Shown: in pieces, positions 51,101-57,100 of the stretch | How the letters are laid out: every line of letters begins with the position of its first letter | Position numbering within the stretch: position 1 is the first letter of the stretch | Assembly (NCBI RefSeq): GCF_013167455.1 | Contig: NZ_CP038328.1 | Direction: 5' to 3' (one strand) | DNA length: 64,000 nt | Origin: Escherichia coli O157:H7 | GTDB lineage: Bacteria; Pseudomonadota; Gammaproteobacteria; Enterobacterales; Enterobacteriaceae | Program-made: the position numbers

Positions 51101-54100
51101 GAAAGCAGCCAAAAAGTTAAACAGTAAAATAATTAACAAGTTTGGTTGTGAAATAGGATTGGGCGCAAATATTGGAAAAGGGTTGACAATTCCCCATCAT
51201 GCTGGAATTGTTGTTCATTTTGCTGTTGATGCGGGTGAAAATCTGGTATTACGACAGAATACTACCATTGGACAGATAGATGGTGATATGCCTAGTTCAA
51301 GAGTAAAAATTGGTAGTAACGTTGATATCGGAGCTAATTGTTGCATCATTGGATTATCACGTAAAATTGGGGATAATGTAAAAATAGGTGCAATGTCTTT
51401 TATAAATAAAGATATACCATCAAACTGCACATATATAACTAAAAAGAGTGGTGTTGTATTGTATAAATAGAGTACATAAAGCCATCGATATTTCTGTCGA
51501 TGGCTTTTTCTTTTTATTGTGGGGCGACTGGCCACTCAACATCCGCTGCTACTGTTGTATCAACACGATTCAACAATACCCGATATGTCTTCCATGCAGC
51601 CAGTAACGATGCCTCTTCCTCCGTCGCAATATCCAAATCTACGGCATCCTGAAGTGGCGCAATATGCTCACTGGCTACCTGCATCAGGCTGTTTTTTGTT
51701 TCTTCTGCCTCCCGTACCCGAAACAGTTTTTCTGCTTCTGCATCTTTCGCCCAGGATGTGCCGTTCCACTTCTGACACTCTCCATCCGGCGACAACCAGG
51801 TAACATTTTCCGGTAACGGACCGAGTTCAGAAATAAATAACGCGTCGCCGGAAGCCACGTCATAAACCGTTTTACCCCGATGATCTTCAACGAGATGCCA
51901 CGATGCCTCATTACTGTTGAAAACAGCCACGAAGCCAGCCGGAATATCTGGCGGTGCAATATCGGTACTGTTTGCTGGCAGACCTGTATGAGGCGGAATG
52001 TATGCGTCACCTTCACCAATAAATTCATTAGTTCCGGCCAGCAGATTGAACCGCCCCGGGAATCCTGGAGACTAAACTCCCTGAGAAAGAGGTAAACAGG
52101 ATGACTAAAAATACACGTTTTTCCCCCGAGGTCCGTCAACGGGCAGTCCGTATGGTTCTGGAAAGTCAGGGCGAATATGACTCACAATGGGCGGCAATTT
52201 GTTCCATTGCCCCAAAGATTGGCTGTACACCAGAGACTCTGCGTGTGTGGGTTCGTCAGCATGAGCGGGATACCGGGGGCGGTGATGGTGGACTCACCAC
52301 CGCTGAACGTCAGCGTCTGAAAGAGCTGGAACGTGAAAATCGTGAACTGCGCCGCAGTAACGATATCCTTCGCCAGGCTTCCGCTTATTTTGCGAAGGCG
52401 GAGTTCGACCGCCTCTGGAAAAAATAATGCCGCTGCTGGATAAGCTGCGTGAGCAGTACGGGGTCGGACCGGTATGCAGTGAACTGCATATTGCCCCGTC
52501 AACGGATTACCACTGTCAGCAACAGCGACATCATCCGGATAAACGCAGTGCCCGTGCGCAGCGCGATGACTGGCTGAAGAGAGAGATACAGCGCGTATAC
52601 GATGAAAATCATCAGGTGTACGGTGTGCGTAAAGTCTGGCGCCAGTTGTTACGCGAAGGTATCAGGGTGGCCAGATGTACAGTGGCGCGCCTCATGGCGG
52701 TTATGGGACTTGCCGGTGTTCTCCGGGGTAAAAAGGTCCGTACTACCGTCAGCCGGAAAGCCGTTTCCGCAGGCGACCGCGTAAACCGTCAGTTCGTGGC
52801 AGAACGTCCTGACCAGCTGTGGGTGGCTGATTTTACTTACGTCAGCACATGGCAGGGCTTCGTCTATGTGGCGTTCATCATTGATGTGTTTTCCGGATGT
52901 ATCGTGGGGTGGCGAGTCTCATCGTCTATGGAAACGACATTCGTGCTGGATGCACTGGAGCAGGCGTTGTGGGCCCGTCGGCCGTCCGGCACAGTCCATC
53001 ACAGTGATAAAGGTTCTCAGTATGTATCACTGGCCTATACGGAGCGACTAAAAGAAGCAAAACTGCTGGCATCAACAGGGAGTACAGGTGACTCGTATGA
53101 CAATGTATTTTATTAGTTCACATACAATTATCAGATTATTCTGGGAATAAGGTCTGAATATTCTTTTTTATTTTATAAAAATTGCATTCAACTCCGCTAG
53201 GCTGATTAGCCTGGTATGTTTCCTTGATGCTAACGGTATTGAAGGGGAGGTTGTCCTCTGGCCATTCGGCCATCCAGTAGGCAAATGCTGGGTTGCGCTT
53301 TATGAGTGCTAGCCCAGCCAGAAAGGCCGCGCGTTGCGCGCGGCTGCGTTCGGAGGCTGGCAGGCTATCGAGGTAATTGCACGCCTCCTGTTCACTCTTG
53401 ACGGCGGCGGGCTTCAGATAGAAACTTATCCGTCTGGTTGGTGTCGTCATTGGTTTACTCCTTGTTCATTGCGTACAACCCATTAACCAGAGCAAACTGT
53501 GGCACCCCGTCCGCGATGAAAGTCGCATTAACTCCGCAGGCTTCGCGGATAGCGGTTGCCACAATCTCCGCCCCGCCACCGACAACCATCACCCGCCCGT
53601 AACCCGAAAAAACCGCCAGCGCGCGGATCACGCGTTGTTTCAGTGTTTCTTCCTTTTCACGAATAACCGCCATCAGGCTGGCGTAATGCGCGTCATTGTG
53701 GATGTGCTGGCGCAGCCAGGCTTCATCATGGCGATGTTCGATAATGGTATTGGCGATGTGGTGACTGGTGCGCATACCGTTAGTGGCCATCACCGACAGT
53801 ACGGCATCGGCCATCAGAGAAACGCCTACGTGTGGATCGCAAAACACCTGGCTGATACCTGCCAGTTGCCCCTGAACCTTTGCCACATCCAGCGTGGTTC
53901 CGCCCAAATCCACAATCAGCAGGGATTCAAACGGACTCATGTCAGCCAGTGCCTTAAAGCCAGCAGGAATGGATTCAGGCATAACCCGTACGTTACGGAT
54001 AGTGAATGCTTCGCCGTTCTGGTACTCCACCGGGCGCATGACGTTCGCTTTTTTGCGGTTGATGTTGGCCATGTCCGGCTGTGCGTTTGTATCGAAATAC

Positions 54101-57100
54101 TCGCTCAGTGGCAGGGTGACAACCACATCCACTTCCTGTGGTGTGATGCCTGATTTGACCAGCGCGTGATGAATGGCAATTACATTCACATCGCTGTACT
54201 GGTATTGCGTGTCGGTCGTCTGGACAAAGCGATCGCTGACCGGATCAAAACCATAGCGCACGCCATCAAGCATGTAGTTCGCGGGCTGCGTGCCACCGAA
54301 TGGCGCAGACCATTCCGACTTGAAGCTGTTCGGGCTGATGGCGTTGCGGCGTTCGCCGTTCTCAGTCCATGCCAGCTTGATGTTGGTGGAGCCGTCGTCG
54401 ATACAAATTTTCATGTCGCTTTTCCTTATGTTGATTAATTAATCGGTTACAGGATTTTTAAATCCCGCTTTTGCCTGTTTTGTGCGCGCTTCATATATCG
54501 CGGCGCGTTTTTTGCTCATTTACGGGATTTGTGAGTCCCGTTTCTGTCTGTTTTTTGTTTCCACTGGTCAGGCCACCCCGCAGCAGGTCTGCTTTGCGGC
54601 TGGCGCGTTCAGTGGTTTCACTGATTCTCTGTGCGTGCTCTGCGTCGCGGATGGCGCGCAGCATGTCAGAAAGCACGGTAACGGGTGTTTTCATGGTGTT
54701 CTGGTCCTGCTGAAGTGTGGATGCCAGGCGTGCGGCGGCTTCAGGGTCTGATGCCCCCAGCTGTGCCAGATAGCTGGCGACCGGGTTATGGCGGATCTCC
54801 GTGCTGCTTACGCCATGATTACGGCTCAGGCGCTGCCAGAGCTGCGTGATTCGGCTGTCCGGGCGGGTATCCGGTTTGCGTACAATTTCAAATCCCTGCG
54901 GTGCAATGATGCTGCCGTCAACGTACAGACTGCCGCCCCGTAACAGGTGCTGCATCTGTTGTTCACCGATATGCAGGCCGAGAGATTCAGCAGACTCCCG
55001 CCATTCTTTAGCGAGTAATTCGTGGTTATCAGGCAAAGGCCGCTGCTGTTTGCGGCTCTGTGTCCAGCTCTGCATTTCATCACTGCTGTTTTTTGCCTGT
55101 TTGTCACGAAGCGAACGCATCAGCGCCCGGCGTTCGTGCCGTTTCAGTGAGCGCATCCATTCGTTCACGTCAACGCCGTCAGGAAGCTGCGGCCACGGTG
55201 CTGGCCGTTCTTCCGGCTGTTCTGTCCCGTTGTTGTCCGTTTCCTGTACACGGGGACAGTTATTGCCACGAGTCCAAGGGGCGGCAGGGCCGCCCTGAAG
55301 GTCAAAACCATTTTCGCGGGCGCTGTCTTCTACTCCCGGTTTACGTCTTACCAGCTTCCAGTTATCCGGGTGCGTGCACACACGGGAGGATTCCCCGATG
55401 AGTGGTGACCAGATCCCGTAAATCTGTACGCTCTGTTCGCCGTAATCGTTCAGCTCATCTGCGAGGTCGTAGGCGGTGCGAATCAGGTAGTCCTTGCGTG
55501 GAACAAGTACGCCTCCCTGTTTCTCAATGTAGGTGGTAAAACATCCGGCATCAGCGGCAGCAAGAACCGCATCCATTGCGTCATCCTTCAGCCGTTGCGG
55601 GCCTTCCGGGTTGCGTGCCATCTGGCTGGCAAGGCGACGCAGTTCACGCCACACCTGACGGGAGGGGATGCCAAAGAACTGGAACTGGCGGACCCGGTGA
55701 AGGCGCGCCCAGCCAATGGCGCGTTCCACGCTCTCGGTCATTGATTTTCCGGTTTCGTGGTCAACGCGTGGTTTGCCTGTTTTCGGGTCGATGCCATCCA
55801 CGGCGCGGCTGTCCAGGTTTTTTCCGATGTAGGTGGCGATGTAGCTGGTTGGCGTGCCTTTTGAGCCGTCGACATACTCCGCCTTAAAGCGCGGAGTAAT
55901 ATCATCGCCCAGCTCGTGACGATCTTCCTGAATGGCAATATCGCGGGTGTGGGACACAATGGTGTCGATTTCTTCCGGATGAGCAAAGACCATCATATGC
56001 CAGTGCACGGTGCCGTCATGGTGAGGCTCCACCGTGCGGATGCCATACCAGCGCAGGCCGTCGCGGTTCAGTTTCTTGCGGACCGCCGCAAAAAACGTGT
56101 TAACCAGGTAATCGCTGGAGTCGCGCATGGTGGCCCCGTTCCATTTGGGATTCGGATGACCGTTCTCTGTTGTAGCGTGGTATTTTGACGGGCAGGTGAC
56201 AGTCAGAAACACCGCTTTGTCGCCACGGGCTTCGGCCAGAAGTTCCAGCCCCTTCATGGTGGCCATCATTTCTGCCTTACGGTGAACCGGGTTACTTACT
56301 CCCGCGTAATACACTGTCTCGAGATCAATCGTGAACCCGTCTTCGTTTTCCAGCATGAAACTTTTCAGGAAATCGCGTGTTTTCTCGCGCTGTGCGCGAA
56401 ACTCGCTTAACGCGTCCTGGCTCAGATAGGGCGATGTTTTTCTGGAAACCAGACAGGCGGCGCGGAGTTGTTCTTCTCTCCACTCGCAACGTAACAGCCA
56501 CAGTTTGCGTTTCCACCATTCCGCACAGGTCAGGCGAAGGATTGCGCCCGGCAGCAGCTCCGTGTCCGGTTCGTTCCTCCGGTCTTTGTCTGTTGTCAGT
56601 GCGTCATAATGTGGAGGCATGGCGTGCAGGTGTAACGCCATGCGGGCCAGCATCTGATACGCCTTCAGCGTTACATCCATGGTCAGTTCGCCATCGGTCG
56701 CGCCAAAGCCATCGCAGAGTTTTTCGAAGGTGCTGCTGAACATCGCCGCCGTCATGGTGGCCAGCGTCTGTATCTGGTGTTTGTTGAGCTGCGGCAGGTA
56801 AAGCAAATCGTCCAGGCGTTCGCGTCCGGCAAGGGAGCGATAACCCTGTGTCAGCCAGCGGTGATCGGTGCGCTCCAGACGTTCGAATATTTTGCGCAGG
56901 TTTCCGCGCGCGTAGCGTTCAGCCTGCCAGCTCTTTTTGCCTTTCTGACGATCGGCTTCCTGTTTTTTGCGCAGGAAGGAGAGGTGGCGAATAAGCGGAT
57001 CGCGCAGATAGGACGGCAGCAGGCGCAGCGAGGCCATGGCTTCATCCACCGCACCGCGTGCCTGTTTTCTGGCGTCTCCTGCCAGTGTGATGGTTTTGTC

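What the first reader, a model, noticed from the sequence alone, without database searches (positions are those of the whole stretch)
53136..54555. Plasmid-type ParM/ParR partition cassette inside a chromosomally integrated prophage, with repeat motifs upstream
The 319-aa protein carries the hallmark motifs of the actin-like ParM/StbA segregation ATPase, and the 104-aa downstream protein resembles ParR at its N-terminus. Type II partition systems belong to plasmids and plasmid-prophages, so one inside an integrated P2-like element is unexpected. It occupies the position downstream of gpA, which in P2 holds accessory genes. Two about 30-bp palindrome-containing motifs lie just upstream of parM and could be a centromere-like ParR site or part of the gpA origin. 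The element may have had an extrachromosomal phase, or the cassette may have been co-opted.
Basis: partly seen in the sequence, partly recalled or inferred. Interest (0 to 1): 0.6.

Follow-up and report, generated by a model that had tools for sequence, protein, structure and literature searches.

The report
ParM/ParR partition cassette in P2-like prophage
A real plasmid-type (actin-like ParM plus ParR) DNA-segregation cassette sits just after the replication gene of a defective P2-like prophage of E. coli O157:H7, but it is a standard, already annotated part of a very common phage lineage whose role has never been tested.

Summary
Window 53455-54414(-) encodes a full-length ParM, about 47-50% identical to plasmid R1 ParM, with all ATPase motifs. 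Window 53136-53450(-) encodes a ParR with a ribbon-helix-helix N-terminus, a disordered linker and the conserved C-terminal tip. Two 38-nt repeats, each holding a 20-bp palindrome, lie 73 bp apart just 5' of parM.

The "unexpected" part does not hold. The window is E. coli O157:H7. The element is the defective P2-like prophage Sp13/CP-933T, integrated at the leuZ tRNA. The order gpA-parM-parR is the normal layout of P88-like (Xuanwuvirus) phages. It occurs in 1303 of 5426 complete E. coli genomes (1441 chromosomal places, 2 on plasmids) and is already annotated as ParM.

More distant ParMs (54-62% identity) from Hafnia, Plesiomonas, Serratia and Enterobacter occupy the same slot in P2-like prophages and form one clade. 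parM is under strong purifying selection (dN/dS 0.06).

The repeats travel with parM rather than with gpA. The P2-type origin maps about 750 bp away, so the repeats are best read as a reduced parC.

Most likely function (inferred): partition or positioning of the excised, rolling-circle-replicating phage circle. Published work shows that Sp13 forms such circles. No functional study of the cassette was found.

Verdict: ordinary in identity, open in biology. Interest 0.38.

The parts
53455..54414 (-). parM: actin-like segregation ATPase, 319 aa
   Evidence: Pfam StbA_N 2.5e-82 and ParM C-terminal domain 5.4e-69. R1 ParM 1mwk E=7e-93 over the full length. Invariant D6-D7-G8, E147, D169-LGGTT-174 and G279-GGA-282 across phage and plasmid relatives. 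dN/dS 0.06 over 71 E. coli alleles.
53136..53450 (-). parR: ribbon-helix-helix adaptor, 104 aa. N-terminal DNA-binding part 1-61, variable disordered linker about 62-88, C-terminal helix 89-101 ending in KKNIQTLFPE.
54447..54484 (-). Proximal 38-nt repeat unit; 20-bp palindrome at 54449-54468 (parM sense GCGGGATTTAAAAATCCTGT), 35 bp before the parM ATG. Putative ParR site (parC, promoter-proximal half).
   Evidence: The E. coli-clade consensus is ACGGGATT-N4-AATCCCGT.
54520..54557 (-). Distal 38-nt repeat unit; 20-bp palindrome at 54522-54541 (parM sense ACGGGACTCACAAATCCCGT), inside the last codons of gpA. Putative ParR site (parC, distal half).
   Evidence: The same two-site layout at 72-73 bp occurs in Plesiomonas L007 and Hafnia L005.
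54485..54519 (-). 35-nt core between the two repeat units; holds the gpA stop codon (54491-54493). No convincing sigma-70 promoter or terminator was found here.
54491..57313 (-). gpA: P2-type rolling-circle replication endonuclease, 940 aa, directly upstream of parM on the same strand.
   Evidence: PHROG 91 'nicking at origin of replication' E=1.4e-274. 31% identity to P2 gpA, E=5e-88.
55256..55306 (-). Predicted gpA origin (homologue of the annotated P2 nick site), inside gpA. Distinct from the repeats.
   Evidence: The P2 rep_origin feature at 29892 aligns with this stretch of the window.
52101..53104 (+). Truncated IS629/IS1203 (IS3 family) copy that ends 32 bp after the parR stop and marks the deletion of the cargo and head-gene block.
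62586..63587 (+). Tyrosine integrase of the prophage. The att duplication (leuZ 3' part) lies at 42288-42408 and 63694-63814.

Best explanation
The cassette is a genuine R1-family type II (ParMRC) partition module. It is a conserved core part of a large lineage of integrative P2-like phages: P88-like Xuanwuvirus in E. coli, Citrobacter and E. albertii, and relatives in Hafnia, Plesiomonas, Serratia and Enterobacter. It is placed at the end of the early replication operon, right after the rolling-circle initiator gpA.

Proposed mechanism:
1. ParR dimers bind the two 20-bp palindromes (each made of two inverted AAATCCC-type half-sites 12 bp apart) that lie 73 bp apart, 5' of parM. This is a reduced parC.
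2. The conserved C-terminal tip of ParR captures ParM filament ends.
3. ATP-driven ParM polymerisation pushes apart, or positions, copies of the extrachromosomal circular phage genome.
4. This happens while the genome is excised, or newly injected, and replicating through gpA. Circles are therefore not lost at cell division before they re-integrate or are packaged.

This is a transient plasmid-like phase, not a plasmid lifestyle.

Shown here: the identity and integrity of ParM and ParR, synteny, lineage-wide conservation, purifying selection, the non-random conserved two-site repeat, and its separation from the origin. Shown by others: Sp13 excises, circularises and replicates. Inferred: ParR binding to the palindromes, filament formation, and the biological role.
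For: Identity:
-.

Conserved synteny gpA-(0 to 2 ORFs)-parM-parR-cargo-portal:
- In P88, vB_EcoM-569R5 and phiSM.
- In prophages of four other genera whose ParM is only 54-62% identical.
- All phage-context ParMs form one clade (NJ tree, bootstrap 72/100).
- ParMs at 53% identity or less have no gpA or portal nearby.

Selection:
- parM dN/dS 0.06; ParR N-terminal 60 codons 0.28; ParR tip 0.15.
- The ParR beta-strand MTTPTRRISFYLKP is invariant and the tip NIxxLFPE is conserved, while the linker is hypervariable. That is the pattern expected if DNA binding and ParM binding are both in use.

Repeats:
- Non-random (0 of 2000 shuffles).
- Exact matches to a motif derived from the two sites themselves occur nowhere else in the 64-kb window, and no site outside the parM-upstream pair matches exactly in the complete 34-kb phage L004.
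- The same 72-73 bp bipartite spacing appears in Hafnia and Plesiomonas phages and in the plasmid parC regions of L095 and L113.
- The half-site resembles the R1 iteron core AAACCC, and the leader CATAAGGA matches that of R1.
- In Hafnia the sites follow parM across an inserted 167-aa ORF.

Substrate:
- Circular Sp13 DNA is present in untreated O157 Sakai and rises about 30-fold after mitomycin C, with early-gene induction (PMC2669165).
- Attachment-site PCR products indicating excision were also obtained for Sp13 in O157:H7 strain PA20 (PMC5931665).
- A whole P88-like genome is deposited as a 34.5-kb circular replicon. Over the 12.4 kb compared, it is 100% identical to a prophage integrated in another strain.

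Precedent:
- SrpMRC stabilises the excised, relaxase-replicated form of SXT/R391 ICEs (PMC4489591).
Against: - No experiment on this cassette was found.
- Only two palindromic sites (4 to 6 half-sites) are present, against ten iterons in R1. The E. coli-type ParR also lacks a helix that every other ParR has. Formation of a canonical ParR/parC ring is therefore uncertain.
- No clear promoter lies in or near the sites, and no terminator separates gpA from parM. Expression may be limited to the lytic early transcript, when cells are not dividing and segregation in the strict sense has little value.
- The window's own sites carry 1-2 arm mismatches relative to the clade consensus, and this prophage is defective.
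- The NJ bootstrap for the phage clade is only 72%.
- The NCBIfam ParM equivalog model is far below its cut-off (19.6 bits against 417).
Confidence: 0.6

Rival explanations
1. Lytic-phase organiser. ParMR is expressed only by read-through from the early promoter with gpA. It moves or spaces replicating monomeric circles to support efficient rolling-circle replication or packaging, as AlpAC does for prophage CGP3. It would have no role in inheritance at cell division.
For: - Same strand as gpA, 76-bp gap, no predicted terminator and no clear promoter of its own.
- In other genera the intervening ORFs are also co-oriented.
- Sp13 early genes and DNA amplify on induction (PMC2669165).
- Precedent: AlpC is required for efficient CGP3 replication (PMC4446434).
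Against: - A palindrome lies over the region just 5' of parM, in the bipartite arrangement typical of autoregulated par promoters. This suggests regulation of its own.
- R1-type ParMRC is a bipolar segregation machine, and a replication role has never been shown for it.
- This rival overlaps the best explanation, because both act on the extrachromosomal circle.
Confidence: 0.22
2. Plasmid-prophage lifestyle. These phages are, or recently were, maintained as low-copy plasmids like P1, N15 or SSU5, and the cassette is their maintenance system.
For: One complete P88-like genome is recorded as a 34,461-bp circular 'plasmid' in PLSDB. The cassette is closest to plasmid ParMRC systems.
Against: - 1441 of 1443 occurrences in complete E. 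coli genomes are chromosomal.
- Every examined member has a tyrosine integrase, C and Cox, and the window shows an att duplication at leuZ.
- No plasmid-type replication gene was seen in the annotated phage records examined, only the rolling-circle initiator gpA.
- The 12.4 kb of the circular record that was compared is 100% identical to a prophage integrated in another strain.
Confidence: 0.05
3. Inert passenger in this particular prophage. In the defective Sp13/CP-933T remnant the cassette no longer does anything useful and persists only because O157:H7 is a young clone.
For: - The prophage lacks head, lysis and baseplate genes, and an IS remnant abuts parR.
- The cassette is 100% identical across O157 genomes, so it carries no signal of selection within the clone.
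- Its palindromes deviate from the clade consensus at 1-2 arm positions.
Against: - Both ORFs are intact and all motifs are present.
- Sp13 still excises, circularises and replicates (PMC2669165), which is exactly the state a partition system acts on.
- The retained block (int, C, cox, early genes, gpA, parMR) is the set needed for excision, replication, partition and re-integration.
Confidence: 0.1
4. Co-opted accessory function expressed from the lysogen, for example interference with incoming plasmids or phages that share the centromere (incompatibility or exclusion). This would be analogous to the defence cargo carried at this P2 hotspot.
For: The slot between gpA and the portal gene carries accessory or defence genes in P2 (tin and old) and in relatives (HicAB, KAP NTPase).
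Against: - No PADLOC match.
- Unlike cargo, the cassette is constant across the lineage while the genes after parR vary.
- The ParR DNA-reading strand and the sites are conserved rather than diversified.
- ParM catalytic motifs and the ParR tip are conserved, as for a working motor.
Confidence: 0.03

Closest known systems
ParMRC of plasmid R1/R100 (type II partition; StbA/StbB)
   Same: - ParM aligns end to end with R1 ParM (E=7e-93; about 47% identity to R1-type loci L114 and L115) with all nucleotide-binding motifs.
- Gene order is parC-parM-parR.
- ParR has the same N-terminal ribbon-helix-helix region and the same C-terminal K-K-N-x-x-x-L tip.
- The site upstream of parM is bipartite.
- The half-site AAATCCC resembles the R1 iteron core AAACCC, and the leader CATAAGGA is shared.
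   Different: - It sits on an integrative P2-like phage, not a plasmid.
- The putative centromere is two 20-bp palindromes rather than 2 x 5 direct 11-12 bp iterons.
- The E. coli-type ParR is shorter and lacks the helix TTxxxIxxxIxSVxP.
- No promoter is evident in the core, which instead holds the gpA stop codon.
SrpMRC of SXT/R391 integrative conjugative elements (Carraro et al. 2015, PMC4489591)
   Same: It is an actin-type partition system carried by an element that normally resides integrated in the chromosome. It acts on a transient excised circle that replicates by a rolling-circle (HUH) enzyme. This is the closest functional analogy to what is proposed here.
   Different: SrpM and SrpR are only distantly related to R1 ParM and ParR (paper abstract), whereas the phage ParM is a close R1 relative. 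The host element is an ICE, not a phage. SrpMRC function is demonstrated; here it is inferred.
AlpAC/alpS of Corynebacterium prophage CGP3 (Donovan et al. 2015, PMC4446434)
   Same: It is an actin-like protein plus a DNA-binding adaptor encoded by an integrated prophage, acting on phage DNA after induction.
   Different: It belongs to a different actin-like family, in a Gram-positive host. Its role is in replication efficiency and DNA transport rather than inheritance. Sequence relatedness to the present cassette was not tested here.
P88-like phages (Peduoviridae, genus Xuanwuvirus): P88, P884B11, 520873, phiSM, vB_EcoM-569R5
   Same: They share the gpA-parM-parR block at 94-98% DNA identity and in the same order. 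The genes are already annotated there as plasmid partition or segregation proteins.
   Different: The window's copy sits in a 21.5-kb defective remnant. It carries one of several ParR alleles, the 569R5 type, with a different core and linker from P88.

Membership tests
Type II (ParMRC, R1-type) partition system | Actin-fold ParM ATPase (StbA_N plus ParM C-terminal domain) | tested here: met
   Pfam 2.5e-82 and 5.4e-69; full-length match to R1 ParM structures, E=7e-93.
Type II (ParMRC, R1-type) partition system | Intact nucleotide-binding and catalytic motifs (phosphate-1 DDG, catalytic Glu, phosphate-2 DLGGTT, adenosine GGGA) | tested here: met
   D6, D7, G8, E147, D169-T174 and G279-A282 are invariant in the alignment of phage and plasmid relatives.
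Type II (ParMRC, R1-type) partition system | ParR ribbon-helix-helix adaptor encoded immediately downstream of parM | tested here: met
   [not shown]
Type II (ParMRC, R1-type) partition system | ParR C-terminal peptide that binds ParM | tested here: inconclusive
   The tip KKNIQTLFPE aligns with the R1 C-terminus ETKKNAMKLIN and the plasmid consensus ETRxNAxxLF. N97 and F102 are nearly invariant, and a helix is predicted at 89-101. Binding itself was not tested. That this tip is the ParM-binding peptide in R1 rests on my knowledge of the published ParM-ParR peptide structure (4a62).
Type II (ParMRC, R1-type) partition system | parC centromere: arrays of iterons flanking the promoter upstream of parM | tested here: inconclusive
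   A bipartite, non-random, conserved repeat is present upstream of parM. It consists of two 20-bp palindromes rather than 2 x 5 iterons as in the R1-type control. No promoter was recognised.
Type II (ParMRC, R1-type) partition system | ATP-dependent filament formation and plasmid stabilisation | not testable with these tools
   Requires biochemistry and a stability assay.
Type II (ParMRC, R1-type) partition system | Carried on a low-copy plasmid | tested here: not met
   Chromosomal prophage at leuZ; 1441 chromosomal against 2 plasmid places in complete E. coli genomes.
Phage-plasmids (P1, N15, SSU5-like extrachromosomal prophages) | Maintained as a plasmid; no chromosomal integration | tested here: not met
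   Integrase and att duplication; almost exclusively chromosomal.
Phage-plasmids (P1, N15, SSU5-like extrachromosomal prophages) | Plasmid-type replication module | tested here: not met
   Only the P2-type rolling-circle initiator gpA is seen in the annotated full genomes.
P88-like P2-family phages (Xuanwuvirus) | Synteny int-C-cox-early genes-gpA(940 aa)-parM-parR and high DNA identity to P88 | tested here: met
   Window 53305-58292 is 96% identical to P88, and 53104-60561 is 95% identical to vB_EcoM-569R5.
P88-like P2-family phages (Xuanwuvirus) | Complete virion and lysis gene set | tested here: not met
   The portal-to-baseplate block is absent and the tape-measure gene is frameshifted. 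Sp13 was described as lacking most morphogenetic genes (PMC2669165).
NCBIfam ParM equivalog NF010498 (PRK13917) | Score above the curated cut-off | tested here: not met
   19.6 bits against a cut-off of 417. That model evidently describes a different ParM subfamily. Pfam and the R1 structures are the relevant references.

The most novel reading that the evidence does not exclude
A whole, very common lineage of integrative P2-like phages, present in about a quarter of E. coli genomes, uses an R1-type actin spindle with a minimal two-palindrome centromere to segregate or position its own excised, gpA-replicated circular genome. That would give these phages, and even defective remnants such as Sp13, a regulated transient plasmid phase that guards against prophage loss and supports lysogenisation when integration is delayed. 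There may also be functional coupling between ParMR and the HUH initiator gpA, as reported for R1 ParMR and the TraI relaxase (PMC4949242).
Probability: 0.45. Interest if true: 0.55.

Novelty: new member of a known kind. Interest (0 to 1): 0.38.

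Why it matters
If the cassette works as proposed, integrative tailed phages would join ICEs as chromosomal elements that keep an active partition system for their short extrachromosomal phase. This would further blur the line between prophage and plasmid.

It would help explain how a defective prophage such as Sp13 of O157:H7 can excise and replicate without being lost.

It would also offer a naturally minimal ParR/parC complex (two palindromes and a shortened ParR) for mechanistic study of type II segregation.

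In practical terms, the cassette should not be read as evidence of a plasmid or of a phage-plasmid when annotating genomes. In E. coli it is a marker of P88-like prophages.

Tried and rejected
- NCBIfam gave only sub-threshold hits. PADLOC gave none.
- My first motif search used the wrong spacer length and missed the real sites. It was corrected. That pattern was derived from the sites themselves, so it only shows there are no extra copies.
- Two scans of viral contigs returned almost only the E. coli clade and added no intermediate diversity. The genome-contig scan and the contig look-ups supplied the divergent loci.
- The first bootstrap run timed out and was redone with a faster distance.
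- The original paper on the P2 nick site is not held. I used the rep_origin feature of the P2 record instead.
- Searches for expression or proteomic data on the two genes in O157 studies found nothing gene-specific.
- I could not check whether the strain carrying the 34.5-kb circular record also has an integrated copy. That assembly did not appear in the E. coli collection.
- Rejected reading, gpA origin: the repeats are not the origin.
- Rejected reading, antisense terminators: the + strand hairpin-plus-T-run look of the repeats is not conserved in Plesiomonas or Hafnia.
- A fused ParM-ParR structure prediction was considered and dropped, because the tools return no contact information.

Full report
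**What is there**

The 319-aa product of 53455-54414(-) matches both Pfam ParM domains (StbA_N 2.5e-82; ParM C-terminal domain 5.4e-69). It aligns end to end with the crystal-structure sequence of plasmid R1 ParM (E=7e-93). In an alignment with phage and plasmid relatives, the phosphate-1 (D6 D7 G8), catalytic (E147), phosphate-2 (D169-LGGTT) and adenosine (G279-GGA) motifs are invariant.

**Where it is**

The window is E. coli O157:H7 chromosome, 100% identical to many O157 genomes. The element lies between the glyW-cysT-leuZ tRNA cluster and yecA. The 3' part of leuZ is duplicated over at least 121 bp at 42288-42408 and 63694-63814. A tyrosine integrase lies at 62586-63587.

This is the roughly 21.5-kb P2-like prophage known as Sp13 (Sakai) or CP-933T (EDL933). 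Compared with phage P88, it keeps int, C, cox, the early genes, gpA, parM, parR and part of the tail cluster. It lacks the portal-to-baseplate block, has a frameshifted tape-measure gene, and carries IS629/IS1203 and IS30 copies. One truncated IS copy ends 32 bp after the parR stop.

**It is not an oddity**

- The same gpA-parM-parR block, at 94-98% DNA identity, is present in phages P88, P884B11, 520873, phiSM of Citrobacter rodentium and vB_EcoM-569R5. It is annotated there as plasmid partition or segregation genes.
- PHROGs has 'partition protein' families for both proteins.
- Among 5426 complete E. coli genomes, 1303 carry the cassette at 90% or greater nucleotide identity. That is 1441 places on chromosomes and 2 on plasmids. 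In the records listed, RefSeq names the genes ParM and 'plasmid partitioning/stability family protein'.
- Papers on P88 and phiSM mention it only as a 'fitness' gene or not at all. I found no functional study.

**It is old and under selection**

A protein search shows a tight E. coli clade (92% identity or more). Next come ParMs of 62% (Hafnia, Plesiomonas), 58% (Serratia) and 54% (Enterobacter) identity, and then the plasmid ParMs at about 50%.

All four intermediate proteins lie in P2-like prophages in the same slot: gpA, then zero to two small ORFs, parM, parR, variable cargo (HicAB, KAP NTPase and others), then portal and terminase. In a one-genome-per-species scan, every ParM at 54% identity or more has gpA beside it, and none at 53% or less does. 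The phage-context ParMs form a single clade in an NJ tree, with 72/100 bootstrap support.

Within the E. coli clade, parM has dN/dS of 0.06 over 71 alleles.

ParR shows a telling pattern:
- The N-terminal strand MTTPTRRISFYLKP is invariant.
- The helical core occurs as two alleles.
- Residues about 62-92 are hypervariable.
- The last ten residues are conserved as (K)KNI(Q/R)xLFPE.
- This tip aligns with the C-terminus of plasmid ParRs (ETRxNAxxLF) and of R1 ParR (ETKKNAMKLIN). From my knowledge of the published ParM-ParR peptide structure, that is the ParM-binding peptide.

Conservation of the DNA-reading strand, the motor-binding tip and the motor itself argues for a working system.

**The repeats**

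Two 38-nt units at 54447-54484 and 54520-54557 are 79% identical and 73 bp apart. No dinucleotide shuffle of the 200 nt upstream of parM reached that similarity (0 of 2000).

Each unit holds a 20-bp palindrome. Across 63 distinct E. coli-clade sequences the consensus of both is ACGGGATT-N4-AATCCCGT. The window's copies differ from it at one and two arm positions. No further exact copy of the core occurs in the window or in a complete 34-kb phage genome, although that pattern was derived from the sites themselves.

The Plesiomonas phage has two GCGGGAC-N-AACCC sites 72 bp apart, and the Hafnia phage has two GGGAT-N-AAACCC-type sites 73 bp apart. In each case they lie directly 5' of parM. In Hafnia a 167-aa ORF separates gpA from parM, and the sites stay with parM. 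The Serratia and Enterobacter phages, whose ParR strand differs (NRKISFYLKP), instead have a 14-20-nt inverted repeat with ATAGAAAAAT arms.

As a control, an R1-type locus shows the known two clusters of 11-12 bp AAACCC-type iterons. Two other plasmid loci show bipartite repeats 72-73 bp apart. The phage half-site AAATCCC, the 12-bp spacing of the two inverted half-sites and the leader CATAAGGA all resemble R1.

The P2 record places the nick site inside gene A, 427 bp before its stop. The homologous sequence in the window lies at about 55256-55306, roughly 750 bp from the repeats.

On the + strand the repeats look like weak terminators, but that feature is not conserved in the other genera. 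I therefore read the repeats as a reduced parC and operator. This is inferred, not shown.

**How it most likely works**

ParR binds the two palindromes, its tip captures ParM filaments, and polymerisation separates or positions copies of the circular phage genome. The open question is when.

- A stable plasmid state is excluded as the norm.
- The element does have an extrachromosomal phase. In O157 Sakai, circular Sp13 DNA is detectable without treatment and rises about 30-fold after mitomycin C, with early-gene induction and DNA amplification. This happens even though Sp13 cannot build virions (PMC2669165). Attachment-site PCR products for Sp13 were also reported in strain PA20 (PMC5931665).
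- A complete P88-like genome is deposited as a 34,461-bp circular replicon. Over the 12.4 kb compared, it is 100% identical to a prophage integrated in the chromosome of another strain.
- The closest precedent is SrpMRC of SXT/R391 ICEs. It stabilises the excised form, which replicates by a rolling-circle relaxase (PMC4489591).

I therefore favour partition of the excised or newly injected circle, replicating by gpA, so that it is not lost before re-integration or packaging (confidence 0.6).

The main rival is a purely lytic-phase role like that of AlpAC in CGP3 (PMC4446434). It is supported by the co-orientation with gpA, the 76-bp gap, and the absence of a predicted terminator or of a clear promoter for parM. 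The two readings overlap. They can be separated by deleting parMR and scoring prophage loss against burst size.

**Differences from the textbook system**

- It sits on an integrative phage rather than a plasmid.
- It has two palindromes instead of ten iterons.
- The gpA stop codon lies in the core where R1 has its promoter.
- The E. coli-type ParR lacks a helix (TTxxxIxxxIxSVxP) that is present in every other ParR examined, including those of the Hafnia, Plesiomonas and Serratia phages.

**Verdict**

The identification is correct, but it is already in the databases. The claim of surprise is not justified, and the centromere reading of the repeats is supported over the origin reading. The unanswered question is what an R1-type spindle does for a phage that integrates. 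That question is real and experimentally tractable but of moderate interest (0.38). Novelty: a new, functionally uncharacterised member of a known kind.

Noticed in passing
window 42288-42408 and 63694-63814: A direct repeat of at least 121 bp (one mismatch) duplicates the 3' part of tRNA-Leu(taa) leuZ and the sequence after it. These are the att sites bounding a prophage of about 21.5 kb.
   Followed up: partly
window 52101-53104: A truncated IS629/IS1203 (IS3 family) copy ends 32 bp after the parR stop. It marks the point where the P88-type cargo, portal, terminase, capsid, lysis and baseplate genes are missing.
   Followed up: partly
window 47401-50240: The tail tape-measure gene is split into two overlapping ORFs (47401-49527 and 49404-50240). 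RefSeq marks it as frameshifted.
   Followed up: no
window 55256-55306 (inside gpA): This stretch is homologous to the annotated P2 ori nick site (GCCGCCCCTTGGACTCGTGGCAATAACTGT against P2 GCCGCGCCTCG|GAGTCCTGTCAATAACTGT). It is the likely replication origin of the element.
   Followed up: partly
window 57758-57988: A small ORF is annotated in RefSeq as 'derepression protein'. Asadulghani et al. describe a P4 epsilon-like gene on Sp13 and suggest it explains the unusual mitomycin inducibility of this P2-like prophage.
   Followed up: no
[not shown]
   Followed up: partly
L011-L093 (parR downstream of parM): ParM is 98% identical or more across E. coli-clade loci, whereas ParR falls into two core alleles with a hypervariable Pro/Gln/Ser/Thr-rich linker. 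The ParR gene is therefore mosaic next to a nearly invariant parM.
   Followed up: partly
window 53136-53450; alignment A2: E. coli-type phage ParRs (103-104 aa) lack the helix TTxxxIxxxIxSVxP found in all plasmid ParRs and in the Hafnia, Plesiomonas, Serratia and Enterobacter phage ParRs.
   Followed up: no
L008 5881-5940; L009 5883-5950: The Serratia and Enterobacter P2-like prophages have a different element upstream of parM: a 14-20-nt inverted repeat with ATAGAAAAAT arms separated by 26-28 bp. Their ParR N-terminal strand also differs (NRKISFYLKP).
   Followed up: partly
window 50865-52075: A serine O-acetyltransferase-like gene (50865-51470, +) and a tail-fibre-assembly gene on the opposite strand lie between the tail gene gpU and the IS remnant. 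This suggests rearrangement of the tail-fibre region.
   Followed up: no
window 54491-57313: gpA here is 940 aa against 761 aa in P2. The extra length is mostly C-terminal, and its last codons overlap the distal palindrome.
   Followed up: no
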